Shown: one piece after another, positions 422-23,200 of the stretch
How the letters are laid out: each line of letters begins with the position of its first letter
How positions within the stretch are numbered: the stretch's first letter is position 1
Assembly (NCBI RefSeq): GCF_004010195.1
Contig: NC_057719.1
Location: forward strand, 35,538,107 to 35,561,665
Direction of reading: 5' to 3'
DNA from: Chiloscyllium plagiosum
Taxonomy: Eukaryota
Length of the DNA stretch: 23,559 bases
The notes under the pieces: generated by a model
Databases searched by the model: none
Told to the model about the DNA's origin: nothing
What the model saw: the letters and a program-made list of their open reading frames with translations, nothing else
Made by a program: the position numbers and the translations under genes

Positions 422-524
422 CTAGTCAAGAAACATAACATGAGCATTTTTAAAAAGATTTAGATGACAGAGTACATTTACTCATTTTCATGTAAACAAA
501 TCCAAGACCTGCAGAAGATCATAC

Positions 525-755
525 CTGGATGTATCGTTCCAACTGGTCATTTGGCATTGGAAAATCAGGATGATTAGCATTGTATAGTGCAACATTCCTG
601 CAACCTTGGTGCATCATAGAGAAGAGGGAACCAAGACATCGCAATCGGGTAAAGTCCATAATGTGTTCCATCTTGGCAGCATGCTCTACTGCTTTGATAA
701 TCAAGCCATTTGAAGTGAAGTATGGCTGTAAAACAGTTGCTGCATCTCTCTGTAT
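525..755 (-). CDS. DYNC1H1: Dynein heavy chain exon 13 of 14 (231 nt)
   Basis: tacag|ATA CAG AGA GAT ... ATC CAG|gtatg; [18 protein letters not shown]...[19 protein letters not shown]. Confidence 0.96.
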
Positions 756-2084
756 CTGTAATAAAAAGTGTTTAAACAATAACATTTGCAGCGAAAATTT
801 TGCACAAGTTTTAGAGCAATTAACCTAAGGTCTGGGAAACGTTACTGGTTAGAAAGTAAAGTGATACATTTACCACTGACAAAAAAGTTACTTAAAATGT
901 TCCTGGAAAATACTCTCAATTTAGTAAAAGAATAAAAGTATGAACAGGTTTGCAAGAAAACGTGGAAAAATACAGTTCAAGTTTTTTTGTTATTCAACAG
1001 GGAGAGATACAGTTCCACTTCCTTCGATCTAACACTAGAAGTTCACTCCAATATTCAAGAAAACTCACTCAATCACAGGGACAACTAACTGGAGAACAGC
1101 TGAACTGAAAACCTACAATTAGAGAAGTAACATCTAACAGGTTGTTTCTCATGCTGCGGCAGATCCTTCAATTACAGGCTCCTTTCCTCAGTCTTTCAAG
1201 CAGCAGGAACTGTGTCTGTAGTAGCAAAAGCAGGAGAGAGGAACTTACGATTGACTGAGCTGGAGGAGATACTTCAGTCAATCCAAAGGCTGCCATACAG
1301 CTAAGAATCACAAACTCTCAGTACTAGCTGCCTAGCAAGGGAGAATCTGTGTTTTGATAGTGTGGGCCAGGTATTATGCAGGGAACAGAGCAAATGTAAT
1401 GGCTAAGGCACTAGAATCGTGGTTAATCCACAAAATGATTTGGGGAGTACCACATCTTTCACACCATGTAACTTCATCCATTCCTAACCAATTTATTGGA
1501 GTTTATACCCGCTCAATGTTAAGCATGTCAAGAATACAGGCAACATGACAACTTCCTGTAACAAGGCAGCATTCAGGCTAGTGGCAACCTTATTTTCTTT
1601 CCACATATGGGAGGTACATAGTATAAACATGTAGTCTGAAAATTGTTTACACAGGCAACAGTCAACATCCACATTCAATTTTTACTAAGGTTTCAGGAAG
1701 CTCTTTACAAAAGGCTTTCCTACTTTAAATAACAATACTTGGAAAACATTTTTACACAAACTATTGACTCAACTAATTGCTTTGATGAATGCATAAAAAT
1801 ATGGAATGTAAAAGACTTGGAATTTATAGAATAAATTACAGGAAAAATATTTAAGTGAAAAAGATTTAGTAAGATATGCAATCTTAGTAGAAATATCACC
1901 TTCCCCCCACCAATGTCAACACAAACACACAAGTTAAGATTATTACATAACTACATCAAGTAGGGGCATTAGCAATAATGAAAAAGCAGCCCTAGAAAAA
2001 AAAAGAGTAATTCAAATGATCTGGCTCATTTTATAAAGATGCAACCTCTGCTAAATGACACGCTTAGGCAGAAAATTCAAACTA

Positions 2085-2336
<252 letters not shown>

Positions 2337-2409
2337 TCATGATCAACTTTTTGGACAAGCATAAATTCTATTCAATACAATTCTATCAATCCTTTGCAAA
2401 AATGCTTAC

Positions 2410-2566
2410 ATTTGATGGAAGGCTGAGACGCTCTCCATTGGGCAGGGTAAGCAATTTGTTATCATCGAGAACCGAATTCAAATTTTCTACCCATTCAGGA
2501 TCCACATCACCATCAAAGATGATCCACTGACGTTTCTGCAGTTCACCTCGTACATTGTCAATAATC
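2410..2566 (-). CDS. DYNC1H1: Dynein heavy chain exon 11 of 14 (157 nt), AAA2 Walker B region
   Basis: ttcag|G ATT ATT GAC ... TCA AAT|gtaag; [52 protein letters not shown]. Confidence 0.97.
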
Positions 2567-2979
2567 CTGAACAAATATATGATTTGCATAAAATTTGACA
2601 TTGTTGAAGTATACAATTTGAACATTAAACATAGTTGATACTGACTTTGTAATAAGTGGAGAAAAACAACGAGCTTCCAATGGATTGTTGAGCAACTTTA
2701 TCCACATTAGTTGAACCAAATGGACTAGGAAGTAGCCAAGTCCATTTTCCATCAGAGTTAGTGGTTTGCACCTCAACACCCATTAGAGACAGCACAGAAA
2801 ACAAAAAAAAACTTGACACATCCTTGCTGGAAGCAAATGAGAGCATGTAGGGTGTGGAGAAGCTACCCTGTTCACAATGTCACTATATCAGTGGTATTCC
2901 GCATTAAGCAGGTATGAAAGAGGTCCACTTGAGCAACCAGCACCTTGTAATCATACAAGGGAGTCAACATCTTCAGGAT

Positions 2980-4510
2980 GATAGAACTCTGTGGGAAGCT
3001 AGAAGAAAATTGATTGCTGGGCCTCTTACTGAGATATTTGTATCATCGATAATCACAGGTGAGGTGCCGAAAGACCAGAGGTTGGCTAATGTGGTGCCAC
3101 TGTTTAAGAAGGGTGGTAAGGACAAGTCAGGGAACTACAGACCAGTGAGCCTAACGTCAGTGATGGGCAAGTTGTTGGAGGGAATCCTGAGGGACAGGAT
3201 GTACATGTATTTGGAAAGGCAAGGACTGATTAGGGATAATCAACATGGCTTTGTGCATGGGAAATCATGTCTCAAACTTGATTGAATTTTTTGAAGTAGT
3301 AACCAAGAGGATTGAGGAGGGCAGAGCAGTAGATGCGATTTATGTGGACTTCAGTAAGACTTTCGATAAGATTCTCCATGGGAGACCGGTTAGCAAGGTT
3401 AGATCTCATGGAATATAGGGAGAAGTAACCATTTGGATACAGAACTGGCTCGAAGGTAGAAGACAGAGGGTGGTGGTGCAGGGTTGTTTTTCAGACTGGA
3501 GGCCTATGACCAGTGGAGTACCACAAGGATTGGTGCTGGGTTCACTATTTTTCATCACTTACATAAATAACTTGGATGTGACCATAAGAGGTATAGTTAA
3601 GTTTGCAGATGACACCAAAGTTGGAAGTGTAGTTGTCAGCGAAGGTGGTTACCTCAGATTACAACAGGATTTGGACCAGATGGGCCAATGGGCTGAGAAG
3701 TGGCAGATGGAGTTTAATTCAGAGAAATGTGAGGTGCTGCATTTTTGGAAAGCAAATCTTAGCAGGACTTATACACTTAATGGTTAAGGTCTAGAGAGTT
3801 TTGCTGAACAAAGAGACCTTGGAGTGCAGGTTCACAACTCCTTGAAAGTGGAGTCGCAGGTAGATAGGATAGTGAAGGCAGCGTTTGGTATACTTTCCTT
3901 TTTTGGTTGGAGTATTGAGTACAGGATTTGAGAGGACATGTTGCAGCTGCACAGGACATTGGTTAGACCACTGTTGGAATACTGCATGCAATTCTGGTTT
4001 CCTTCCTATTGGAAAGATGTCGTGAAACTTGAAAGGGTTCAGAAAAGATTTAAGGATGTTGCTAGGGTTGGAGGATTAGAGCTATAGCGAGAGATAGAAT
4101 AGGCAGTTTTCCCTGGAACGTCAGAGACTGAGGGGTGATCTTACCGAAGTTTATAAAATCATGAGGGGCATGGATAGGATAAATGGACAAAGTCTTTTCC
4201 CTGTGGTCGGGGAGTCCAGAACTAGAGGGCATAGGTTTAGGAGAGGGGAAAAATATGAGAGACACCTAAGGGGCAACTGTTTCACGCAGAAGGTGGTATG
4301 TATATGGAATGAGCTGCCAGAGGAAGTGGTAGAGGCTGGTACAATTGTAACATTTAAAATGCATCTGGATGGTATACGAATAGGAAGTGTTTGGAGGGAT
4401 GTGGGCTGGGTGCTGAGAGGTGGGACTAGATTGGGGTGGGATATCTGGTCGGCATAGATGTATTGGAACGAAGAGTCTGTTTCCGTGCTGTACATCTCTA
4501 CGGCTCGAAT
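2980..4510 (+). mobile_element. 5'-truncated CR1-clade LINE (HER1-like): broken RT domain plus 3' UTR
   Basis: ORF fragments ANVVPLFKKGGKDKSGNYRPVSLTSVMGKLLE, QHGFVHGKSCL, TSGVPQG, KFADDTK, WQMEFNSEKCEVLHF, FTQKVVCIWNELP with stops and frameshifts; 3' end resembles the SINE tails in this window; boundaries approximate. Confidence 0.92.
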
Positions 4511-4547
4511 AGGGAGGAAAACTGAAAAGAAAACAGTGGTCAACTTA

Positions 4548-4787
<240 letters not shown>

Positions 4788-4814
4788 CTAACGTAGAACA
4801 TGTAATTAAAGTTA

Positions 4815-5111
<297 letters not shown>

Positions 5112-5352
5112 TCAATTACTCAACATGATTGGGTGGTGTTAATATTCATGAAGCAAAGTGAACACTTAATTGATGTCAAGGTCAGAAATGCTTATTTTTC
5201 TGAAGAGAAAGTACAAAGTACAAGTATAACAACCAAAGTAAGACATTCAGAAAAGATATTTCTCAACTTCTTTGGGCTTAAAGTACGATCAAAACAAGTT
5301 ATAACATTGAAAAACACCAATCGAATATTAAGTCAGAATAGGAATGTTTATA

Positions 5353-5644
5353 TAGATTAGATTCCCTACAGTGCAGAAACAGGCCCTTTGGCCCAATCAG
5401 TCCACACCTACCCTCCAAAGAGTAACCCACCCAGACCCATTTCCCTAATGCACCTAGCACTATGGGCAATTTAGCTTCGCCAATTCACCTAACCTGCAGA
5501 TCTTTGGACTGTGGGAGGAAACCGGAGCATCCAGAGGAAACCGACACAGACAGTCGTCCGAGGCTGGAATCAAACCTGGGACCCTGGCGCTAAGAGGCAG
5601 CGGTGCTAAGAGGCAGCAGTGCTAACCACTGAGCCACCGTGCCA
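5353..5644 (-). mobile_element. tRNA-derived V-SINE (HE1-like) with internal deletion
   Basis: Reverse complement begins TGGCACGGTGGCTCAGTGGTTAGCAC (A box), contains the V-core CCGGTTTCCTCCCACAGTCCAAAGA and ends in GGGAATCTAATCTA; aligns by eye with 22883-23200; 16-bp tandem duplication near 5589-5620. Confidence 0.92.
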
Positions 5645-5669
5645 ACCTGAAGTTAACAATTTCAGGAAA

Positions 5670-5744
5670 TGCAGTCAGCAGGATTTGAACCTGCGCAGGG
5701 AACCATCTTCTAATCCATCACCTTAACCACACAGCCACAGCTGC
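5670..5744 (-). pseudogene. tRNA-Ser(AGA)-derived pseudogene
   Basis: Reverse complement GCAGCTGTGGCTGTGTGGTTAAGGTGATGGATTAGAAGATGGTTCCCTGCGCAGGTTCAAATCCTGCTGACTGCA resembles vertebrate tRNA-Ser-AGA as I recall it; the 3' anticodon stem and variable arm are partly deleted, with several CpG-type transitions. Confidence 0.8.
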
Positions 5745-5830
5745 ATGTTGTATACTGTATTTCATTTTTCTTGTACGTACACTAATCAAGATAATTTGAC
5801 AAGTAATGACAACTGCAAAGAATAACTAAC

Positions 5831-6014
5831 CTCTTGCTCAGGTAGATTCTCTGCAATTTCTGCCTCATCAACATCTTCACCACGTTCTCCTTTCTCTTTC
5901 TTTATCTTCTGAATCCTCTCTCGCTTCACATTCCCTGCACTTACCAGTACACTCTTCAGGGCACGAAGACCAAAATCATAGTGACTCTGAGATGACAGCT
6001 GTTCATCACAAAGC
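5831..6014 (-). CDS. DYNC1H1: Dynein heavy chain exon 8 of 14 (184 nt)
   Basis: ttaag|G CTT TGT GAT ... GAG CAA GAG|gttag; [32 protein letters not shown]...NLPEQE. Confidence 0.96.
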
Positions 6015-6140
6015 CTTAAAAAGTAATTTTTGAAAAAGAAATTCAGTATATGAATGTTATTGAACTGGATCAAAAAACATGTGAAATTTTCACCAAAAGA
6101 GATTCAAGGAGAAATGTCATCGTGAAGCTTAACATGCTTA

Positions 6141-6407
<267 letters not shown>

Positions 6408-6547
6408 TCAAGCTGCAAGTTCAATACTTCACACAAGAACAGGAATAGACTAGGCAGCAGTTTGAAGCTGTTACACATTCCATTAGTTCACGTCTGAACT
6501 GTTCCCTCGCTCTAAATATGAATTGAAAGAATTACGGATGATGTAAA

Positions 6548-6890
6548 TCAGAAACAAACAGAAATTGCCAGTAAAGTTCAGCAGGTCTGGCAGCATCTGT
6601 GGAAAGAAATCAGAGTAAATGTTTCAGGTTGTGAAACACTTCCTCACTCAATCTGAAATTTTAAGTGAAATCACAAACAATTGATCTCAGTGTTGTGGGG
6701 GCTGATATTCATGGAGTTTAATAAGGTGTAGGTTTTTAAGGAAATATTAAAGTTGGCAACAGTTAGGGGCCAAAAACCGAAATGGCTGGATAAGCTCTGC
6801 AAGTATGGCAGTATCTGCGGAGAGAAATCAGTAAGTGTTTTGGGTTAAGAAACACTTCCTCACTCAATCTGAAATGTTAACTCTGATTTC
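6548..6890. repeat. Two diverged tandem copies of a short repeat (about 6548-6660 and 6770-6890)
   Basis: CAGCAGGTCTGGCAGCATCTGTGGAAAGAAATCAGAG versus CTGCAAGTATGGCAGTATCTGCGGAGAGAAATCAG; both followed by GAAACACTTCCTCACTCAATCTGAAAT; the CAGCAGGTC.GGCAGCATC motif is shared with the fold-back family. Confidence 0.7.
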
Positions 6891-6959
6891 CGAGGATTCC
6901 TTTGTGATCAATTGTTTGTGATTTCATTTAAAATTTGGTTTAGACCATACTTAAGATGG

Positions 6960-7133
6960 AGAGAAAGTGAGGACTGTAGATGCTGGACAGCATGTGTCGA
7001 AAAGTGAGATGCTGGAAAAGCACAGCAGGTCAGGCAGCATCCAAGGAACAGGAGAATCGATGTTTCGGGTATTAACCCTTCTTCAGGAATTAACATCCTC
7101 TGATGTTGCCTGACATGTTGTACTTTTCCAGCG
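6960..7133. mobile_element. Short fold-back element (probably Penelope-related, non-autonomous) with 15-bp TSD
   Basis: Flanked by exact direct repeat CCATACTTAAGATGG (6945-6959, 7134-7148); starts (A)GAGAAAGTGAGGACTGTAGATGCTGGA like the 13418 copy; partial inverted arm at about 7096-7132. Confidence 0.85.
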
Positions 7134-7149
7134 CCATACTTAAGATGGT

Positions 7150-7420
7150 GTGCACTCATCCCAAATTACGTTAAAAGATTAAATAATTCTTTGCATTTAT
7201 CCCATCAGGTCAATTTATCATTTTACATAATTAGTGAGATGACTCCTCATCCTCCTGAATTCCAGGAAATACAGGCCAGATTTATAAAACCTACGCTCAT
7301 AATTCAATCTTCCAGGCCCATGCATGATCCTGGCAAATATAGACTGTACCTCTGCCAGTGCATTCCTCTATCCTAAAACAGCTTGGATAACATACGCTAA
7401 GTTGGAGAAAAAGGCTAAAA
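7150..7420 (-). mobile_element. Old, highly degenerate CR1-like fragment; its 3' end may lie at about 6430-6500
   Basis: Weak resemblance to the reverse complement of CR1 RT C-terminal DNA seen in the other copies (GAGATGACTCCTCATCCTCCTGAATTCCAGGAAATACAGGCC); no ORF support. Confidence 0.4.
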
Positions 7421-7569
7421 TGTTTCCACATCCACCGTCAGTATCTTTGCAGCAACCAAGTAGTAGTACAAGAGTATACTACTTCTATCAGCATACACAT
7501 TGTTAAATCAATTACACTTGCTCATGCAGATCAAAGGAATAGTGACCTATAAACAATGCTTTTTGCATA

Positions 7570-7880
7570 CTAGCACTGCTGCCTCACAGTGCCTGAGATC
7601 CGGTTCAATTCCCGACTCAGGCGACTGACTGTGTGGAGTTTGCACGTTCTCCCAGTGTCTGCGTGGGTTTCCTCCGGGTGCTCCGGTTTCCTCCCACAGT
7701 CCAAAGATGTGCAGGTCAGGTGAACTGGCCATGCTAAATTGCCCGTAGTGTTAGGTAAGGGGTAAATGTAGTGGTATGGGTGGGTTGCGCTTCGGCGGGT
7801 TGGTGTGGACTTGTTGGGCCGAAGGGCCTGTTCCCACACTGTAATGTAATCTAATCTATAATCTAAAAATCTAATCTAAT
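7570..7880 (+). mobile_element. V-SINE (HE1-like), slightly 5'-truncated
   Basis: B box GGTTCAATTCC; V-core GTGTCTGCGTGGGTTTCCTCCGGGTGCTCCGGTTTCCTCCCACAGTCCAAAGATGTGC; tail of AATCT repeats; nearly colinear with 22883-23200. Confidence 0.93.
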
Positions 7881-7889
7881 TTTTCATGA

Positions 7890-8160
7890 CTGGCTGGTCA
7901 ATGACAGATTGCAAGAATTCCTGTAAGCAGGATATTAAAATGGTGGTTATTGGCATTGACAACTGGGAGTCAGATGCCTGCAGAAGCAAACTGTTTGAAA
8001 AGAAGTTGACGAGCAGAACAGGAGAGATGAGCTCAGTTGTCCAAGAAAGCTCAGACAGTAAAGAGAGCAAGAAATCATGTGGCTTCTTAGCCTGACTTCC
8101 TCTACAGCAAAAGCAGCCATGACAAAGTAGGTCTCTTGAGTATCTCACGCAGCTAGCCAT
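7890..8160 (+). mobile_element. Probable RTE-clade LINE 3' remnant
   Basis: Peptide KNSCKQDIKMVVIGIDNWESDACRS resembles the RTE C-terminal motif (KD..K.DLK..GID...WE..A.DR); GTAGGTCTCTTGAGT (VGLLS) lies downstream; heavily decayed. Confidence 0.45.
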
Positions 8161-9169
8161 CTTCTTACAAGGTGACAAGTTCCTGTGCACAAAATCAAAG
8201 AAATCCAGTAGCTTGGGTGTAAGGATAAAATAACCATGAATTGCAGGAGTACATTCAGTCTTTGCATAGTCTCCTCTCTTACCCACACCCTCCCCAATCC
8301 ACTCAATCCAACATTCCCTCATCTTCAAGCAGTGTTCATTCCTCTCGACAGATATACAAAGATTTCTCTTCCTGCATTCACTTCAAATCTGCAAAGTTTC
8401 TTGTCCTCACCTATTGTAGTTTTTACTCTTTGCAGACACACTGTCAACTTCAGATTAGAAGTTAATGGAACACTTTTTTCCCTCCATCATAGCCTACAGA
8501 AGTAACTGGGATGAGGCAAGCAACCAGTCCAAACTATCAAGTTGTGGGTGTTAATTTAGTCAAACATCTGCAGGCATGCAAGACTGCAAAATCAACGGTT
8601 GCCCTAAGCTTTGCAGTCTATACTGTTCCTTTAGGCTGAACTAACTATTTCAGGATGATTCAGATTGTACAAATATTTTCACCCAGGCAAAACCCACAGC
8701 TGAGTGTCAAGCCCCACTTCCCGCTGACTCTGACCTCAATTTTCCTTTAGGCTTGTAGCTGCTAAGACCCTCATGCATATTTTGACAAAGTTAGAGTCAA
8801 TTATTGCAAAGTCCTCCTACTTTTCATTATGCTTAGAATTTTAGCCTGCAAAATATATCATGTCCTGCACTAAGTTTTACTTATTAATCGCCTTCATTGA
8901 ACAATGCTGTTTCATAACAACATAAAAATGATCTTACAATTATTCCAATGTCTTGACTCTTATCACAGCAAACTTCTCCCATGTTAGATTTCCTACATCC
9001 AAAAATATCCCAAGCCATGACTCTTGCGCATACCCTCCCTTTATCCAATTGCTGATACGAAAGCCTTCACCTGACTCAGCTCCATTCTTCATAACTACTG
9101 CCATCAAGCAGCTCATCCTCACCTATATTAAAAGAAATCATTTCAATTCAATTTTCAATGATCTCTCCC

Positions 9170-9826
9170 TACTCAAAGTTCACTGAAGAGGAAGAGAATA
9201 ACAAGGCTCCTTTCCTAGGCATCATGGTAGAATGCAAAGCAAATGGAGAGCTACAGACCAGAGTTTACAGGAAAGCCATAAACACTGACGAGATACGCAA
9301 CTACGGAAGCAATTATCCCACCATCCACAAACTAAGCTGCATCAGAATTTTATTTAAATGAGCCACAACACACTGCAGCACTGAGGAACTAAGAGAAACA
9401 GAGGGAAAAATACCTGTACAACAGGTACCTGATAAGCACAGTTCACTAATTCCCTCACAACAGACCTAAAAAAGACAACACACCCAGAAACCCCAGCCAC
9501 CCGGCCATATATTAAGGATATTCCCGAGATGACGACAAGACTATTCCAGGCCCTAGGCATCATGGTAGCCCACCAACCTACCACCACACAAATAGATCCT
9601 GATGAATTTAAAAGACCGCCCCCCCTAGCAACAACCAGCAGAACTAATGTCATATACAAAATACCCTGCAAGGACCACAACAAACATTACATTGGCAGGA
9701 AACTAGCTGCCAGGATACATGAGCACCGACTAGCCACCAAAAGACATCCAAGAACAAATCTACCAGCTCAGTGAGCAAACTTACAACCTGATCCACAATT
9801 GGAGCTACAAATCTTCTCTAAAATTG
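9170..9826 (+). mobile_element. Penelope-like element remnant (RT C-terminus, GIY-YIG endonuclease, terminal sequence)
   Basis: KFTEEEENNKAPFLGIMVE...GELQTRVYRKAINTD...SNYPTIHKLSCIRILFK is typical of the PLE RT thumb; NVIYKIPCKDHNKHYIG..RIHEH is a GIY-YIG motif; frameshifted and internally deleted. Confidence 0.88.
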
Positions 9827-10168
9827 CAAATCTCTCCCTACGTTTTAATTAAGCCTTGGCATAAATCCCCTCTAGTTTTATTTTTCTCCCTTCTCTGTAA
9901 AAGATTTTTTTGCTTTATACCTGTATTTACAAGTAGCTGTTATTGGTTTGTACTATTCTGTTTGCTGTGTCTGTTTGACAGAAGTCCAAAGATGAAGAAC
10001 AACTGAAGGCTCTGTACTTCAAAGCTGAATTCACATATGGTTAATAACAAAAATTACTTTTACACCTTGCAAGTTATGGTTAAAAAAAAATGAAGTTATT
10101 GCACTGTAGAGGAACTAATTTTGAAAGAGAATCAGGACAACAAAAAAAATCAAAAATGCATAGAATTA

Positions 10169-10333
<165 letters not shown>

Positions 10334-13300
10334 CTAAAGTTAAGAAAATAAATCAATTAGATAAGAAAAATCCAAAAAGACCAAAAGCATTTTATGAACG
10401 TTTTATATAAGGCCTGGAAGAATTTAGAATCAAACAAGATCAACAAACATTGGAGTCTTGAATGATTTTACCATTTGTTTTAGGGTCATAAAGTAACCAA
10501 CCCAAGAGGTTACTTGGTAAAAATCTTTACAATTTCAGACTCCCCTTTTCTATAACTCTTGTTTTAAGATATAACAGTTAAGACAAAATACTGTACGATA
10601 ATGATTAACTTACTGAAACAATCAATAACATCTCAACTGCTCAATACACAAACAACTTCACTACAGTGGAGCAGTATTTCAGAAGTCAGACTTCAAGCCA
10701 GTTCAATTAAAAAAAACACTTGAAAGATTTACACCACATTATTAAAACCAGTTACAGCTTTTCTTTTAAATTTAGAAATAGTTTTTTATTATATTGTTGA
10801 GAGTGTATTAGCCTTTATTTTTGTGAATTTTATATGCTCTATGCTTGGGATGTTCTGGATGAGGTTCCCTTCCTGAGGGGTCTCGGATTTGCCCGGACGA
10901 TTATGGTTGATCAATCAGTTAAGTGGTGCACCTGGAATGTCAAGGGGAGCAATTCACCAGTCAAAAAGAAAATATTATCAAACCTCAAAAAAGAAAGGGT
11001 TGATATGGCTCTCCTACAGGAGAGCCACTTATTGGATAAAGAACACTTGACAGGGTGGATTTTATCAGGGGAGTTGTTATTCTTATTCGGAAGAATTTCC
11101 CTTTCAAAATCCTAAATCAGATAAAAGACGAATCTGGATGATATATTCTGATTAAAGCCCTTATAAATGGAGAGGAAAATGGGATTTTAAAATTTGTATT
11201 GCCCCTGCCCGGCACATCCTTTTAAATTTATAACGGAAGCCTTCTCAAAATTGATGGCTCTCTGTGCTCGTCATACAATTATAGGGGGAGACTTTAATTG
11301 TATTATGGATATGGAAATAAATAGGATTCCCAAGAGTACTGCAGAAGTATCTCCCAGATCTAGACAATTGGTGGATTTGAACAAAGAATTAGGACGAGAT
11401 GATGTATGGAGATGTCTTCATCCACAGGGCAGAGATTTTTAAAATTTCATATCCTGTAAAATAGATAGTATAACAATTTCCGACCACGCTGCTGTACATA
11501 TGGAAATCAAGGCGAGGAACAACGGGACATCCCCTCGGCATTGGCGTATGGACCCCTTCCTGATGAAAGATAGTAAATTTGTAAAATACTTCTCTCAAGA
11601 ATTTAAAACTTTTTTAGAAATTTAGGTATGGCTAGCAACCCATCAATGATGTGGGAGACCATCAAAGCTTACGCGCGAAGTTTGATCATCTCATACTCAG
11701 CGACCCAGAAAAAATTAAAGGGAGAACAACAACGTCTGCTTGAAGCTCGCTTAAAAGTGGCTGAAACAGCATACGTTGATAGACCTTCTATTATCAAATT
11801 GCAAAGGATTACGGCCCTTAAGACAGCTCTAAACACCACACTTTCCCTCTTAACCGTTTGGGTAATATTATTTGCAAAACAAAGGTTATATGAATTTGGC
11901 GATAAACCTGGTAGATACTTAGCATTTCTTGCAAAGAAAAAGAAGGCCCCTCAAACTACCACGTCTATCAAGGAAAGTACGGGTATTTTGACTCATGATC
12001 ATAAAAGGATTATTGCAATCTTTAGAAAATTTTATTTTGATTTATATAAATCACAGGATTGTGAAGACAGGACTAGGAGGATGCAATCATTTTTAAAAAA
12101 TTTGACCTTTCTGGACCTAACTCCGGAACAGGTATCGGTCTTGAATGCTCCCCTAACAATCCAAGAAATACTTGACGCAATCAGACAACTTCAAAGCAGT
12201 AAGGCACCTGGCCCAAGTTGAATTCTATAAAGAGTTTACAGGAATATTGGCTGGTCCACTTATGGACATGTATAACTACTCATACAGTCAGGGCTATCTC
12301 CCGCCTTCGCTGAAAGAGACAAATATCTCTCATCCTTAAAAAAGGAAAAGGACCCAGAAGATTGCACGTCATACAGACCAATATCTTTGCTAAATGTAGA
12401 TTTTAAAATCCTCTCTAAAACATTAGCATTGAGGCTAGAAAGGGTATTGCCACATATCATAAAGGAGGATCAGACAAGGTTTATTAAGGGCCATAGATCA
12501 TCCAATAATGTTAGAAGGGTTTTGAATGTGATTCAAGCCTGCCATCAGGGAAAGATACCAGGAGTAGTAGTCTCATTAGACACGGAAAAGGCATTCGACA
12601 GGCATATTTGTTTTACACATTGGAAAGGTTTGGCGTTGATCAAATGGGTCTCAACACTGTATAGTGATCCCAAAGCAGTGGTGATTACCAATGGATTAGG
12701 CTCGGATAGCTTCAACGTGGATAGGGGCTACCGTCAGGGATGTCCTCTCTCGCCATTGCTATTTACGCTAATAATTGAACCACTAGCAGAAGCTATACAG
12801 GCTGACCCTAATATAACGGCCCTGAGGATTGGTACAAGTAAACATAAAATTACCCTTTATGCAGATGATGTTCTCCTATTCCTCAGTAATCCCCCTGATG
12901 TCCGTGCCTCGCTTAATCCAATTTATTAATACATTTAGTGCATTCTCAGGCTATAAAATTAACTTCTCAAAATCGGACGCTATGTCAATGGGTGGCCTTG
13001 CTAGTATATCCCACTTATTGGACAGATCCCACTTTCCCTTTCGGTGGTCCCTGGAGGGTTTCTTATATTTAGGCATTTTTATTACCCCAGTATTTGGTCA
13101 GTTATACAAGGCTAACTTTGTGCATTTACTGGAAAGGATAAGGCAGGACCTCCAGCGATGGGGAGACCTTCCAATTTCCTGGCTAGGCAGAATAGCACTA
13201 ATTAAAATGAATGTCCTGCCCCATCTCCTATACCTTACGAGGATGCTTCCGGTGATGCTGCAGAGGCTGGCACTACATAAATTATATGGCTGATTGGATT

Positions 13301-13417
13301 CCTTTATCTGGAATCATAGACAGCCCCTCATTAAGCTAAAGAAGCTACAGCTGCCAGAGGCAAGGGGAGGATTGGATTCCCCAGATTTTAGGAAATATCA
13401 GTTAAGTTCCTATTGGG

Positions 13418-13626
13418 GAGAAAGTGAGGTCTGCAGACGCTGGAGATCAAAGCTGAAACTTTATTGCTGGAACAGCACAGCAGGTCAGGCAGCATCTAGG
13501 GAACAGAAGATTCGACGTTTCGGGCACATGCCCTTCTTCAGGAAGGGCATGTGCCCGAAACGTCGAATCTTCTGTTCCCTAGATGCTGCCTGACCTGCTG
13601 TGCTGTTCCAGCAATAAAGTTTCAGC
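13418..13626. mobile_element. Short fold-back element inserted in L1 ORF2, with 15-bp TSD and perfect 86-bp inverted repeat
   Basis: TSD TAAGTTCCTATTGGG (13403-13417, 13627-13641); arms 13451-13536 and 13542-13627 are exact reverse complements around loop TTCAG. Confidence 0.93.
13509..13544 (-). ncRNA. Candidate minimal type I hammerhead ribozyme motif
   Basis: Minus strand UUC CUGAAGA A GGGC AUGU GCCC GAAAC GUC GAAUC: CUGANGA core, stem II, GAAA, palindromic ACGU stem III, GUC cleavage triplet; stem I only 3 bp and one extra A before stem II. Confidence 0.6.
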
Positions 13627-15136
13627 TAAGTTCCTATTGGGTCTTGTCTGACCCGCAATCAATCTGGCTGGACATCGAGGCTTCTCAAGTAAAATGCCCA
13701 CTTATTAACCTTTTTTTTTAGACAAGAGGAAAATCATTACGGATCACTGTAAAAACCCTATAATACTAAACACAATTAAAGTTTGGAATATAATGCGGCA
13801 AAACGAGGGCAACTCACAAAACATCCCCCTATGCTCCGATAGTGGGAGCATGGGGATTTCAACTGGGGTTTACAGATGCCACTTTCAAACTCTGGAGATC
13901 CAGGGTATCTTTTGTTTAGGGGATCTATTTAAAGAAGGGGTCCTGATGCCTTTTGAACAGCTGCGTCAGAAATTCGGATTACCCAATGAAGACCTCTTTC
14001 GATACTTCCAAATTCGAGATTATATACAGAAGACGACTACGTTACTAGATAGTCTTTACAAATCAGATAGAGAATGTAGAGTGCTATGGTCAATGGGGGT
14101 ATCTTCCGTCAGTATGATTTATCATTTACTACATGATGAAGTGTCGGGAGATATGGACAATCTGCTTAAAACATGGGATCAGGATTTGGGACTAGAAATC
14201 TCTCTAGAAACGTGGAGTGACATTTGGGAAAATGCCAGAAGAATCACCATCTGCAACAGAACTCAGGCTATTCAGCAGAAGATACTTCATAGGGCCCATA
14301 CAGCACCGGATCGATTGGCAAACTTTAAGGCAGGAGCATCTCCAATGTATCCCAAATGTAAAATAGAAGTGGGCACTCTTGTACATTGCCTATGGACCTG
14401 TCATAAGATCTGTAGATATTGGACTAAAGTAGCAAGTGCTCTGACAGAAATCCTAGGAACGGAAATTAGAGTGGACTCTGTATCCCTCCTTTTGGGCTTT
14501 TCAAACTTTTCCTTCCTGGATATGCACAGGAACAGGTTATTTTCTATTCTCTCTTTCTGTGCAAGGAAAAATATTTTGGTAGACTGGGTGGCTGAGGACC
14601 CTGGACTTTCAAATTGGCACAGATTAATTATGGAATGTATTCCCCTTGACTTCCTTACAAATATGGTGCACCAAAAGACCGAATTATTCCATAAAATATG
14701 GCAGCCCTTCTTGAATTATATGAATACAGATATCTCGGCCAACCTAACAAGGATTTTTATTTATTTGAGATGGCGAACCTGGCTGGTCCGGGCCCTCTTG
14801 GGAGAGGAATCCTGCACGAATACGGGTTTTGTTACATTCAATGTTAATACATTCCGAGCATGTATCTCGCTACCCAATTTATGTTATCCGTCGTTTTTTT
14901 TTCTCTTATTTGAATAACGTGAGAGACTTAATTATACATTCTGGTTAGTTGTAGGTTAGATTAGTAGTTAGTTGAGCTTTTTTTTCCCCTCTTATTTTTC
15001 TTTTGTTAAATGTTGGTTATTATTTATTTAAGATTTAATTGTATATCAATGTTTATACTTGGATTTTTTTTTTATTTTTGTAAACTTGCAAAAATGTTAA
15101 ATTTTCAATAAAAATAGCTATATAAAAAAACAGTTA

Positions 15137-15295
<159 letters not shown>

Positions 15296-15734
15296 CTATC
15301 AAGGTAACATTTGCTAGAAAATTAAATGCTGCTTATTAACAGATGCTAGTTTTAAAATTACTTGTTTACAACCAAGTATGATTTTGGGAAGGCAGATTTG
15401 AGGACAACAGCATCAATAGATTGAATACCATGTACACATGCAGAAAATCAAATGCGAATCCAACAACAAAGTTACTCAAAACCCAATCGATGCAATTGAG
15501 TGGTACCTTTTACAGTCATCTTCAAAGTGCTGATTGTTTGAAATTTTGAACAGGTAAATCTGTTTTCATAAAGCCTATGTCATTGCCCAGCACTGATTTC
15601 TTTTCCAGGCTGTTGTTTAGTCCTGTATGTATCTCCACAGTTTTCTTCAGTTCTACTGTTATTCTTATTTAACTTTCTGGCAGAAGACTATTTTTAATTG
15701 TACTGAATTCAGACTGAGTAGATCTTATAAATGG

Positions 15735-15826
15735 TTTTGAGAAGATTAGTAGCTCAGGTTGAGGTTCTGGATGTAGGTTTGCTCTCATGAACTTTCCAGC
15801 TCAGTGAGCAAACCTACATCCAGAAC
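15735..15826. repeat. Solo Penelope terminal fragment arranged as a hairpin
   Basis: Exact 21-bp inverted arms GTTCTGGATGTAGGTTTGCTC (15764-15784) and GAGCAAACCTACATCCAGAAC (15806-15826); CCAGCTCAGTGAGCAAAC and GAGCTAC.AATCTTCTC are shared with the 3' end of the PLE at about 9762-9820. Confidence 0.8.
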
Positions 15827-16425
15827 ATCTTATAACATTCCATTTACATTCAAGTCAATTAGCTTTTCAAACACAATACCCTCAAGATACAGCAAATGCC
15901 AGTTGTGGCTTGCAACTTTTTGAAAATACATCAAGAGCGTTTACACTTGTCCATTGGTATGACATCACAGGAATTCTCATACTGGAAACTTGTGCTCTGC
16001 TTTGGGGATAAGTTTGCTTTCGGTCATTTGAAAAATTCATGGGAGAGAGAGAGAAATTCAAATAAGAACAGAAAAACATTGGTGGTGGCCAATGCTTTTA
16101 AGGTGTTTTACTGGCCAAAGATGTGGCTGTGTGTCAGCCTTACTGTGGACAGCAGTATCGCCAATCACAATGCCATCAGATGTCACTGAATCAGAGCTTT
16201 ACATGATTGGTTACCAGACCATAATGAGATGCACTCATTTTCTGCTCTGTCCCCTTCCCCAATTATGCTGATCACCACAGCCCAGGAGGCAAACTAGGGA
16301 TCATCAGTATTTTTCATGTATGATCTATAGACATCATTAATAGTTAAGAAAATGTCATTTAGTGTTCTTAGTGCAGCTAAACCATGAAAATAAAACATTT
16401 CTTAAACTCTTGAACAGATGTTTCA

Positions 16426-16824
<399 letters not shown>

Positions 16825-17241
16825 TTAAATATTCAAAATAAACATTAATTTGATATAGGAAAAAGATGAGAAATATTGAAGACAAATTGAGAATGTGTTT
16901 CAAAGTATGTTACAAACACGCTTTTTATTAATTGGCACCTATGGGATCAGGAGGTCCTCAATGTAAAACGCACACTAAGTAATGTAGGGGTATACACATC
17001 ACTTATGCTTTATAGCATAAATCACTGAAATAATAATGCAAACTACTCTGACAATAAGCTTCCAGTATTTGAGGTATGTAATCTCACATTCTCCTCTGCA
17101 TATAACTTTTGCCAATTTATCAATAGTATTGGTTCATAAGGTGACAATTTGAAGAAGGTTTGCTGGACATCTTCAATTTAACACAAACTGTCCTTGGCAG
17201 CACTAAAATTTGACCTCAACGGACAAAGGATGCTCACTCAC

Positions 17242-17433
17242 CAAGTGTTCAAGTTTCCTCCTACGAAGTGCTGGTTGTTCCATCAACACAGAATCTGCCA
17301 ACACAGTCAAAGTAGCTTCCACATTAACTAGGACTGGTGCGAGTGGGGACTGACCACCACTTGCTCCATTATTCAGGGCATTTTCCACATTTTCTGACCA
17401 TGATATCTGAGCGGAAAGGACAACAAGCTGGGC
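17242..17433 (-). CDS. DYNC1H1: Dynein heavy chain exon 3 of 14 (192 nt)
   Basis: tgtag|GCC CAG CTT GTT ... GAA CAC TTG|gtgag; [20 protein letters not shown]...[21 protein letters not shown]. Confidence 0.96.
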
Positions 17434-17524
17434 CTACATTTAAAGATAAAAACGCAAGAATATCCAGTTATCCCCACACTGCAATTTCACTTCAAATTAC
17501 TAATTCTCATTTCTGCATACATAC

Positions 17525-17713
17525 CTGGTATTTATCTATCCAGGAAATGTAGTCGGCAGCATCAATTGAAGTGCCTTGACCAAAGATTCCAACTTCCGTG
17601 ACCGATTCAGCGAGCAACTTGGCCAAGGTAACCCTCATTTCCTTCTCCACTAAGGTTAGCCACTCATTAATCTTAGGGTGCTCAGTGATTGAAACAGGAG
17701 TCTTAAAAAGCAC
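17525..17713 (-). CDS. DYNC1H1: Dynein heavy chain exon 2 of 14 (189 nt)
   Basis: gacag|GTG CTT TTT AAG ... AAA TAC CAG|gtatg; [41 protein letters not shown]...WIDKYQ; phase 0/0. Confidence 0.96.
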
Positions 17714-17801
17714 CTGTCAGATAATGTATGTAGGTCCTCAATGTTAAATTGAAAGATAATCATACCAAGTATTCTTTCTGCTACATTTAAACAATATACT
17801 A

Positions 17802-18056
<255 letters not shown>

Positions 18057-22342: not shown

Positions 22343-22418
22343 GCTGAAAGTGTTGCTGGAAAAGCGCAGCAGGTCAGGCAGCTCTGATCTCCAGCATCTG
22401 CAGTCCTCACTTTCTCCT
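22343..22418. repeat. Truncated fragment of the fold-back family at a deletion junction in CR1 ORF2
   Basis: TTGCTGGAAAAGCGCAGCAGGTCAGGCAGC joined to TCTGATCTCCAGCATCTGCAGTCCTCACTTTCTCC, the reverse complement of the family start GGAGAAAGTGAGGACTGCAGATGCTGGAGATCA. Confidence 0.85.
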
Positions 22419-22882
22419 CGGTAGTAGTTGATGGTAAAGGTTCATCTTGGATTGCAGTTACTAGCGGTGTTCCGCAAGGATCTGTTTTGGGACCATTGCT
22501 GTTTGTCATTTTTATAAATTACCTGGAGGAGGGGCTAGAAGGTTGGGTGAGCAAGTTTGCGGATGATACGAAAGTCGGTGGAGTTGTTGACAGTGAGGAA
22601 GGATGTGTCAGGTTACAGCGGGATACAGATAAGCTGCAGAGCTGGGCAGAAAGGTGGCAAATGGAGTTCAATGTAGGCAAGTGTGAGGTGATTCACTTTG
22701 GTAAGAGTAACAAAAAGATGGGGTACTGGGCTAATGGTCGGATACTTGGTAGTGTGGATGAGCAGAGGGATCTTGGTGTCCATGTACACAGATCTCTGAA
22801 AGTTGCCACCCAAGCAAATAGTGCGGTGAAGGCGGCATATGGTGTACTGGCTTTTATTGGTAGAGGATTTGTTTTTATTTGT

Positions 22883-23200
22883 GGGTGGCACGGTGGCACA
22901 GTGGCTAGCACTGTTGCCTCACAGCGCCAGAGACCCGGGTTCATTTCCCGCCTCAGGCGACTGACTGTGTGGAGTTTGCACGTTCTCCCCGTGTCTGCGT
23001 GGGTTTCCTGCGGGTGCTCCGGTTTCCTCCCACAGTCCAAAGATGTGCAGGTTAGGTGAATTGGCCATGCTAAATTGTCCGTGTTAGGTAAGGGGTAAAT
23101 GTAGGGGGGTATGGGTGGTTTGCGCTTCGGCGGGTCGGTGTGGACTTGGTGGGCCGAAGGGCCTGTTGCCACACTGTAAAGTAATCTAAATCTAATCTAA
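22883..23200 (+). mobile_element. Full-length V-SINE (HE1-like) nested in the CR1 RT region
   Basis: A box TGGCACAGTGG (22894-22904), B box GGTTCATTTCC (22938-22948), V-core, AATCT-repeat tail; CR1 reads ...ATTGGTAGAGGA before and GGAATTGAGTTCCGG after. Confidence 0.94.

What the first reader, a model, noticed from the sequence alone, without database searches (positions are those of the whole stretch)
13418..13626. Young fold-back element with a perfect 86-bp hairpin, 15-bp TSD and hammerhead-like core, sitting in a dead L1
Seen: arms 13451-13536 and 13542-13627 are exact reverse complements with a 5-nt loop and intact CpGs, while the host L1 ORF2 is full of stops and frameshifts. The insert is flanked by an exact 15-bp direct repeat. 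It is asymmetric (about 33 nt of unpaired head), so it is not a classic MITE with terminal inverted repeats. Known: Penelope-like elements carry minimal hammerheads in their terminal repeats and often integrate with an inverted partial copy. Inference: a recently inserted, non-autonomous element mobilised by a PLE. This is the best candidate for an under-described system in the window, though the repeat may already be catalogued.
Basis: partly seen in the sequence, partly recalled or inferred. Interest (0 to 1): 0.72.

Follow-up and report, generated by a model that had tools for sequence, protein, structure and literature searches.

The report
Young fold-back Penelope retroelement stub
The hairpin is a recent insertion of two head-to-head stubs from the end of a very abundant Penelope-like jumping gene, a pattern already described for this class, so it is a clean example rather than a new system.

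Summary
Observation confirmed: 86-bp perfect arms, 5-nt loop, 33-nt unpaired head, exact 15-bp flanking repeat, inside a dead L1 ORF2. A minimal hammerhead lies on the minus strand only (13541-13514; 2 descriptor hits in the window, 0.023 expected). In runs from related organisms the family is very abundant, has one fixed end with unrelated flanks, often continues past the fold point into a longer body, and folds back at several other centres. That is the published insertion pattern of Penelope-like elements: a 5'-truncated end copy carrying a 30-40-bp tail, an inverted tail-less copy, and a target duplication. So this is a one-off integration product, not a fixed hairpin element or MITE. Not shown: a link to an RT/GIY-YIG gene (no genome held; empty), independent reads across this copy, or an orthologous empty allele. 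Likely mechanism (inferred): both target nicks primed reverse transcription, and the two cDNAs joined through 3 nt at the hammerhead's 5' edge; snap-back copying is the rival. This scan found the same kind of insert before on other DNA of this genome.

The parts
13403..13417 (+). Left copy of the target-site duplication (15 bp exact; 13398-13417 if the 20-bp, one-mismatch reading is taken)
13418..13450 (-). 33-nt 'tail': the family's fixed 3' end, present on one side only
   Evidence: length; loose ends before 13416/13417 with agreement 0.35-0.42 in X6 and X23; same end in window copies 2 and 3
13418..13544 (-). Direct, tailed copy of the PLE end (pLTR-like), 127 nt, 5'-truncated three bases upstream of the hammerhead core
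   Evidence: family sequence leaves the window sequence behind 13544 in 4 of 4 runs
13510..13544 (-). Minimal type I hammerhead motif: core 13541-13535, one extra base 13534, helix II 13533-13522 (4 bp, 4-nt loop), GAAA 13521-13518, palindromic helix III 13518-13515, C17 at 13514, short helix I (13544-13542 with 13513-13511). Sequestered in the long hairpin in this copy
   Evidence: fold -182 kcal/mol, z -26.8; features as in PMC4209133
13537..13544 (.). Head-to-head junction: 5-nt loop plus 3 nt (13542-13544) shared by the direct and the inverted copy
13542..13627 (+). Inverted, tail-less copy, 86 nt, lacking the hammerhead's 5' core box
13627..13641 (+). Right copy of the target-site duplication; overlaps the inverted copy by 1 nt (6 nt on the 20-bp reading)
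10800..15130 (+). Host: decayed L1-type LINE (ORF2 remnants, A-rich 3' end near 15120-15130; left edge approximate), in an intron of a dynein heavy-chain gene on the minus strand
   Evidence: empty-site joint 13410 to 13636 in related L1 copies
6945..7148 (-). Second, older family copy (insert 6960-7133) with its own exact 15-bp duplication (6945-6959, 7134-7148), tail, direct copy ending at the same point, a hammerhead with a compensatory helix II pair and a decayed helix III CpG, and a shorter diverged inverted copy
   Evidence: 103 of 127 aligned bases identical to the focal copy
22343..22418 (+). Third family copy in the opposite orientation: tail plus 5 nt joined to a 42-nt inverted copy that has no direct counterpart; no duplication found, host CR1-like LINE lacks sequence at the site

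Best explanation
This is a dead-on-arrival integration product of an endonuclease-bearing Penelope-like retroelement: two 5'-truncated copies of the element's hammerhead-bearing end, head to head, one with the 33-nt tail and one without, between a 15-bp (possibly 20-bp) target duplication. Shown: the anatomy, the repeat family, its fixed 3' end, variable fold points, the hammerhead motif. Inferred from published PLE biochemistry: the RT/GIY-YIG protein nicked both strands of the L1 DNA 15-20 nt apart; the upper-strand end (13417) primed cDNA from the outer RT start site and ran 127 nt to the 5' edge of the hammerhead; the lower-strand end (13627) primed from the inner start site 33 nt further in and ran 86 nt; the two cDNA ends were joined through the 3 shared bases at 13542-13544 and repaired. 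I put about 0.8 on the class and architecture; within that, about 55:35:10 for two primed cDNAs, snap-back copying, other. Both cDNAs cross the cleavage position (13514/13513), so the templates were uncleaved. The hammerhead in this copy is most likely inactive because the hairpin swallows it.
For: Tail of 33 nt on one end, inverted 5'-truncated copy and target duplication match Craig 2021 (passages) and Arkhipova 2013 (passages: 31-bp tail, inverted pLTR overlapping the direct one, 8-10-bp TSD). Hammerhead has the PLE marks of Cervera 2014 (extra base after position 9, G10.1-C11.1, palindromic helix III); 2 hits against 0.023 expected (300 simulated windows); helix II pair C-G here is U-A in copy 2. 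Helix II start to family end is 116 nt against RT starts 111-118 nt into the ORF that begins at stem II in the anole PLE; that protein cuts and extends both strands and uses two RT starts that bound the tail; 28,138, 19,498 and 9,169 contigs laid in 3 contig runs; summed depth over the insert 42, 18 and 20 times that of the L1 flanks (not a copy number); fixed end with unrelated flanks (196 contigs in X6, 223 reads in X23); continuation behind 13544 starting with the same five letters in 4 of 4 runs (162, 127, 70 contigs; 330 reads); empty L1 site (2 and 6 contigs). For two primed cDNAs: the inverted copy ends at the tail boundary in copies 1 and 3, and is longer than the direct copy in copy 3 and in 7 of the 14 internal joints shown (my arithmetic, table 5). 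A second, unrelated repeat in the window has the same anatomy (15731-15829, 9-bp duplication) and matches the end of a decayed ORF with a weak GIY-YIG hit.
Against: No RT/GIY-YIG gene was linked to this family: no genome held, 0 hits; the body beyond 13544 is known only as a 30-letter consensus of low agreement (0.36-0.63). The listed runs hold at most 0.37 of the words, so they are relatives, not this locus; no listed piece spans the insert. The internal joints have only 18-25 letters on the short side at 85% likeness, 64 of 79 joint rows were not shown, and unequal arms can also arise by later deletion of a hairpin. 15 bp is longer than the 8-10-bp duplications in the rotifer paper. The GIY-YIG hit for the second family is below cut-off (E 0.046). 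Arkhipova 2013 reads junction palindromes as self-priming, not twin priming.
Confidence: 0.8

Rival explanations
1. Same element, different second step: one cDNA was made, its 3' end folded back on the 3-bp stem around 13537-13541 and copied itself for 86 nt, then was resolved at the tail boundary (self-priming, as proposed for rotifer PLEs).
For: Arms are 86 of 86 identical, as self-copying demands; the cDNA end can form a weak hairpin (-0.6 kcal/mol); 5 of 14 internal joints shown are near-symmetric about another short native stem near 13496; PMC3846280 argues for self-priming.
Against: Cannot by itself make inverted arms longer than the direct arm (copy 3; 7 of 14 joints). Identical arms are also expected from two RNAs of one young subfamily: this copy's letters at 13459/13461 are 97% of depth in X2, and at 13438, 13507, 13605 are 14-20% in X2 against 1-7% in X1/X6.
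Confidence: 0.28
2. The template was a short non-coding RNA (about 127-130 nt) that starts at the 5' edge of the hammerhead, a non-autonomous PLE derivative or a promoter/splice-defined short transcript, mobilised in trans. This is compatible with the architecture above and changes only the source RNA.
For: The direct copy stops at 13544 here and one base further in copy 2; 4 of the 12 rows shown table 5c leave at 13544 (to 13413, 13417 and twice 13512; kind of joint not given). Non-LTR retrozymes derived from pLTRs are reported in vertebrates including one chondrichthyan (passages).
Against: Hundreds of records continue beyond 13544 into a shared body; 13544 is also where the window stops resembling the family, which inflates joints there; no tandem array at the locus; no read-end pile-up in the RNA run (table 6), which is a poly(A) library of another organism.
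Confidence: 0.35
4. Assembly or library fold-back artefact.
For: No independent record spanning this copy was listed; hairpins are a known assembly hazard (passage).
Against: The mirror stops after 86 bp, omits the tail, and the L1 resumes through a duplicated 15-mer; an artefactual fold-back would mirror the flank. Two other inserts in the window and joints in independent short-read contigs show the same kind of structure.
Confidence: 0.03
5. MITE or other DNA-transposon derivative.
For: Short, palindromic, high copy, flanked by a duplication.
Against: Termini are not inverted repeats of each other (33-nt tail on one side); variable centres and lengths; 15-bp duplications of unrelated sequence in 2 of 2 copies that have one; hammerhead motif.
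Confidence: 0.02

Closest known systems
Insertions of endonuclease-bearing Penelope-like elements with inverted pLTR and tail (Arkhipova et al. 2013, PMC3846280; Craig et al. 2021, PMC8557442; passages read)
   Same: Direct 5'-truncated end copy, adjacent inverted copy head to head with a small overlap, 30-40-bp tail at one end only, target duplication, hammerhead in the repeat.
   Different: Here nothing but the two end stubs was inserted (209 bp, no ORF), so the whole insert is one hairpin; duplication 15 bp against 8-10 bp in the rotifer examples; coding partner not identified.
Poseidon PLE of the green anole, PAc (Frangieh et al. 2024, PMC11167929; parts 1-2 of 4 read)
   Same: Hammerhead about 110-120 nt upstream of the insertion end; tail bounded by two ends; template not cleaved by the ribozyme.
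   Different: No sequence comparison was possible; clade (Poseidon or Neptune) of this family not determined; the target here is not notably AT-rich (9 of 15 A/T).
Minimal hammerheads (min-HHR) of metazoan PLEs (Cervera and De la Pena 2014, PMC4209133; parts 1-2 of 4 read)
   Same: Full core, extra base between positions 9 and 10.1, G10.1-C11.1, palindromic helix III needing a dimer; that paper also notes pairs of motifs 100-700 bp apart on opposite strands and many solitary motifs from truncated PLEs.
   Different: Helix II 4 bp and helix I 3 bp here; second arm lacks the core; sharks were not named in the parts read.
Non-LTR retrozymes (Li et al., bioRxiv 10.64898/2026.07.22.740005; part 1 of 5 and passages read)
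   Same: Short, non-coding, hammerhead-bearing, pLTR-derived.
   Different: Defined as tandem arrays with a hammerhead in each unit; this is an inverted pair with one complete motif.
L1 twin-priming 5' inversions (recalled, not read here)
   Same: Second nick primes an inverted cDNA; junction microhomology; duplication of about 15 bp.
   Different: No poly(A) tail; in L1 the inverted part comes from upstream RNA and does not mirror the direct part, here it does.

Membership tests
Endonuclease-bearing Penelope-like element | Single ORF with PLE-type RT and GIY-YIG endonuclease attached to this terminal repeat | tested here: inconclusive
   No ORF in the insert; no genome held; two short-frame protein searches gave 0 hits, which is weak because the queries were 40-43 residues of a possibly non-coding end.
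Endonuclease-bearing Penelope-like element | Minimal hammerhead in the terminal repeat | tested here: met
   Descriptor hits at 13541 and 7086, minus strand; 0.023 expected; one compensatory helix II change between the two.
Endonuclease-bearing Penelope-like element | 30-40-bp tail at one end only | tested here: met
   33 nt; tail on one end in 3 of 3 window copies.
Endonuclease-bearing Penelope-like element | Inverted 5'-truncated copy adjacent at the 5' end (head to head) | tested here: met
   13542-13627 against 13418-13544.
Endonuclease-bearing Penelope-like element | Fixed 3' end, variable 5' truncation, no poly(A) | tested here: met
   tables 5 and 7 (relatives); three different window copies.
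Endonuclease-bearing Penelope-like element | Target-site duplication of variable sequence | tested here: met
   15 bp in 2 of 3 window copies, none found in the third; empty-site joint in related L1 copies.
Endonuclease-bearing Penelope-like element | Partial-tandem (direct pLTR) arrangement | tested here: inconclusive
   Not at this locus; rows 13544 to 13413/13417 table 5c may be tandem joints, kind not printed.
Endonuclease-bearing Penelope-like element | RT phylogeny within a PLE clade; match to a Dfam/Repbase entry | not testable with these tools
   No protein and no repeat library available.
Active hammerhead ribozyme | Self-cleavage after C17 | not testable with these tools
   Predicted to be sequestered in this copy; the direct copy alone forms helix II but not the full fold.
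MITE | Terminal inverted repeats at both ends and a fixed unit | tested here: not met
   33-nt unpaired end; variable centres.
MITE | Short superfamily-specific duplication (2-9 bp; recalled) | tested here: not met
   15 bp in 2 of 2 copies with a duplication.
Non-LTR retrozyme | Tandem units, each with a complete type I hammerhead | tested here: not met
   No tandem array at the locus; one complete motif.

The most novel reading that the evidence does not exclude
In this lineage the PLE end is mobilised mostly as a short RNA beginning at the hammerhead's 5' edge, and each hairpin insert records one integration in which both target nicks primed reverse transcription from the two start sites that bound the tail, the inner one helped by 1-6 nt of target microhomology. 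Thousands of young, duplication-flanked stubs would then be a genome-scale natural data set that settles how PLEs build their inverted ends (twin priming against self-priming), a step the literature calls undefined; no paper in the library ties 'twin priming' to PLE integration by title or abstract (3 listings seen).
Probability: 0.25. Interest if true: 0.55.

Novelty: new member of a known kind. Interest (0 to 1): 0.25.

Why it matters
As a single insert it matters little: it is one of very many stubs, in an intron, inside a dead L1. Its use is as a clean specimen. PLE integration is still unresolved, and young copies like this keep the nick spacing, both RT start sites and the junction legible. 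It also warns annotators that such hairpins look like MITEs or microRNA precursors (6 of the 9 Rfam matches in the window were sub-threshold miRNA or sRNA models on hairpins).

Tried and rejected
Own-genome search: no genome held, so copy number, arm-length and duplication-length tables could not be made. Motif scans of public collections: 5 metagenome, 0 viral and 3 prokaryote-genome loci; all 8 matched only 22-25 bases and were dropped as chance. Protein link to an autonomous element: 0 hits from two reading frames of the end sequence. Rfam: no hammerhead family among 9 matches; the miRNA-model hits are far below their cut-offs and reflect the hairpin. Sequencing runs: no RNA holder listed on record. 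The one raw RNA run laid (X23, 2 in 100 read; 1,620 reads) shows family reads in both orientations, 0.95 running on into unlike sequence, and no start or end pile-up: it says nothing on this locus or on ribozyme cleavage. A search with the second family's ORF remnant gave 1 hit of 52 candidates, without an informative Pfam family. The CpG argument for youth was considered and given little weight. I considered that joints 13544 to 13512 mark inverted copies starting at the cleavage site, but the table does not give the strand, so no claim is made. Literature: 7 searches listed no paper describing this family in sharks; subscription journals, Repbase and Dfam are outside the library, and no supplementary files were read, so the family may well be catalogued.

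Full report
Observation. The structure is there as described. The arms 13451-13536 and 13542-13627 pair at 86 of 86 positions around a 5-nt loop, the only such palindrome in the window. The 15-mer at 13403-13417 recurs exactly at 13627-13641 and nowhere else; none of 4,944 random flank pairs came closer than 11 letters. The repeat extends to 20 bp with one mismatch. The head 13418-13450 is unpaired. The host is a decayed L1-type ORF2 whose frame runs through the site once the insert and one repeat are set aside; it lies between exons of a dynein heavy-chain gene on the minus strand (AAA_6 hits at 10169-10333 and 15137-15295). That the animal is a shark is my inference from recalled repeat types and from earlier notes of this scan; no call names it.

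Hammerhead. A minimal-hammerhead descriptor hit 2 sites in the window, 13541 and 7086, both on the minus strand, against 0.023 per simulated window (300 simulations). The focal motif has the full core, one extra base before helix II, a G-C first pair, a 4-bp helix II and a palindromic helix III, the marks listed for metazoan PLEs in PMC4209133 (parts 1-2 of 4 read). The fourth helix II pair is C-G here and U-A in copy 2. Rfam found no hammerhead (9 matches). The plus-strand arm begins inside the core and lacks the first box. As RNA the insert folds into one -182 kcal/mol hairpin, so this copy is unlikely to cleave.

The family. Two more copies lie in the window. Copy 2 (6960-7133) has its own exact 15-bp duplication, the same end, a direct part that stops one base further than here, and a shorter, diverged inverted part. 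Copy 3 (22343-22418) has the tail, almost no direct arm and a 42-nt inverted arm ending at the tail boundary; no duplication was found and the host CR1-like element lacks sequence there. No genome is held, so I used sequencing runs. The 24 listed hold at most 0.37 of the words: they are relatives, not this locus. I laid 4 of the 24 on 13050-14000 at 85% likeness. 28,138, 19,498 and 9,169 contigs and 1,620 RNA reads were laid; summed depth over the insert was 42, 18 and 20 times that over the L1 flanks, which shows abundance but is no copy number. Of 927 loose-end rows 24 were shown. They give a fixed family end at 13416/13417 with unrelated flanks (65 plus 131 contigs in X6, 223 reads in X23; agreement 0.35-0.42), and a continuation behind 13544 that starts with the same five letters in 4 of 4 runs (162, 127, 70 contigs, 330 reads; agreement 0.36-0.63). 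So the sequence is the 3' end of a longer element, cut here three bases upstream of the hammerhead core. Of 79 joint rows 15 were shown: 1 is the empty L1 site (13410 to 13636; 2 contigs in X1, 6 in X6) and 14 are internal. By my arithmetic about the mirror axis, 5 are near-symmetric about a centre near 13496, 7 have the inverted part 30-69 nt longer than the direct part, and 2 the reverse. These rest on 18-25 letters on the short side and are indicative only. No listed piece spans the focal insert.

Age. Zero of 86 mismatches bounds divergence at 3.4% per pair (95%) if arms are not homogenised, while listed L1 pieces from relatives differ from the flanks by several to over ten percent (table 8). 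The letters that set this copy apart from one organism's majority are common in the other (97% of depth at 13459 and 13461, 63% at 13499, 14-20% at three more sites in X2, against 1-9% in X1 and X6), which suggests a young subfamily rather than mutation followed by arm conversion. CpG content does not separate insert from host (0.51 against 0.43-0.47).

Target site. Related L1 copies carry 18 more bases within the duplicated stretch and a C at the position of 13402 (9 contigs in X6, table 7). The duplication therefore spans an older deletion in this L1 copy, which confirms the order: L1 decay first, insertion later. If the target had C, the duplication was up to 20 bp with 6 nt of microhomology to the tail-less end and the left copy mutated later; if it already had T, it is 15 bp with a 1-nt overlap. 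I cannot decide.

How it works. Craig 2021 (passages) and Arkhipova 2013 (passages) describe PLE insertions as 5'-truncated copies with an adjacent inverted copy, a 30-40-bp tail on one end and a short duplication. Frangieh 2024 (parts 1-2 of 4) shows that a vertebrate PLE protein cuts and extends both target strands, starts reverse transcription at two internal sites that bound the tail, 111-118 nt after the ORF start at hammerhead stem II, and uses uncleaved RNA. Here stem II to the end is 116 nt, the tail 33 nt, and both arms cross the cleavage position. My preferred inference: each nick primed one cDNA, from the outer and the inner start site, and the two met through the 3 shared bases at 13542-13544. 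Inverted arms that end at the tail boundary (copies 1 and 3) and exceed the direct arm (copy 3; 7 of 14 joints) favour this; later deletion could mimic the latter. Snap-back self-copying, the reading of Arkhipova 2013, explains identical arms as well and stays a serious rival. A second repeat family in the window shows the same anatomy at 15731-15829 with a 9-bp duplication overlapping its tail-less arm by 3 nt, and aligns with the end of a decayed ORF at 9095-9822 that has only a weak GIY-YIG hit (E 0.046, below cut-off).

What is not shown. No coding element was tied to this family (0 hits), so membership rests on anatomy and the ribozyme. Whether the template was a full element or a short derivative is open: the direct copy ends at the hammerhead's edge in 2 of 2 window copies that reach it, and 4 of 12 shown rows of table 5c (110 in all) leave at 13544, but that position is also where the window stops matching the family.

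Novelty. The architecture is known; 7 literature searches listed no description of this family in sharks, but Dfam, Repbase, subscription journals and all supplements were out of view. Other papers consulted as passages only: PMC8969392, PMC6155905, PMC4350176, PMC6765202, and the retrozyme preprint. My reading was fixed before the look-ups of earlier findings; those notes report the same kind of insert many times elsewhere in this genome and are not counted as evidence. Verdict: real, young, ordinary for its class; interest 0.25.

Noticed in passing
window 15722-15835 and 9095-9822: A second PLE-like family: a 96-bp tail-plus-inverted-arm stub with a 9-bp duplication, and a decayed ORF end with a weak GIY-YIG hit whose 3' terminus matches it.
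   Followed up: partly
window 6556-6940: Two tandem, older copies (spacing about 218) of a third, distantly related end sequence with nested inverted repeats, directly beside copy 2; no duplication found.
   Followed up: partly
window 22343-22418: Copy 3 sits at a point where its CR1-like host lacks part of the RT region present in the CR1-like copy at about 3000-4500; insertion with target deletion, or later deletion.
   Followed up: partly
window 13398-13417 and 13622-13641: The duplicated target spans an 18-nt deletion relative to related L1 copies, and the duplication may be 20 bp with 6 nt of microhomology.
   Followed up: partly
window 13449-13465 and 13613-13614 (table 7): Loose ends show at least two further subfamilies that differ in the segment between the tail and the conserved arm.
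   Followed up: no
window 13544 to 13512 (table 5c, run X2): Two joint types link the hammerhead's 5' edge to the position next to the predicted cleavage site; strand not printed, so it may be an inverted copy starting at the cut or a short tandem.
   Followed up: no
window minus strand, exons scattered from about 480 to 18000: The host gene is a dynein heavy chain (motor region); the hammerhead strand of copies 1 and 2 is the pre-mRNA strand, so the intron carries an 86-bp perfect double-stranded RNA.
   Followed up: no
window 5367-5645, 7570-7870, 22880-23200: Three copies of a SINE-like repeat of about 300 bp (D1, D4, I1, I3); recalled as the shark HE1 type, not tested.
   Followed up: no
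window 5670-5744 minus: tRNA-like sequence at Rfam's gathering score (29.3 bits), with a second related stretch near 17541-17562; probably a tRNA-derived repeat or pseudogene.
   Followed up: no
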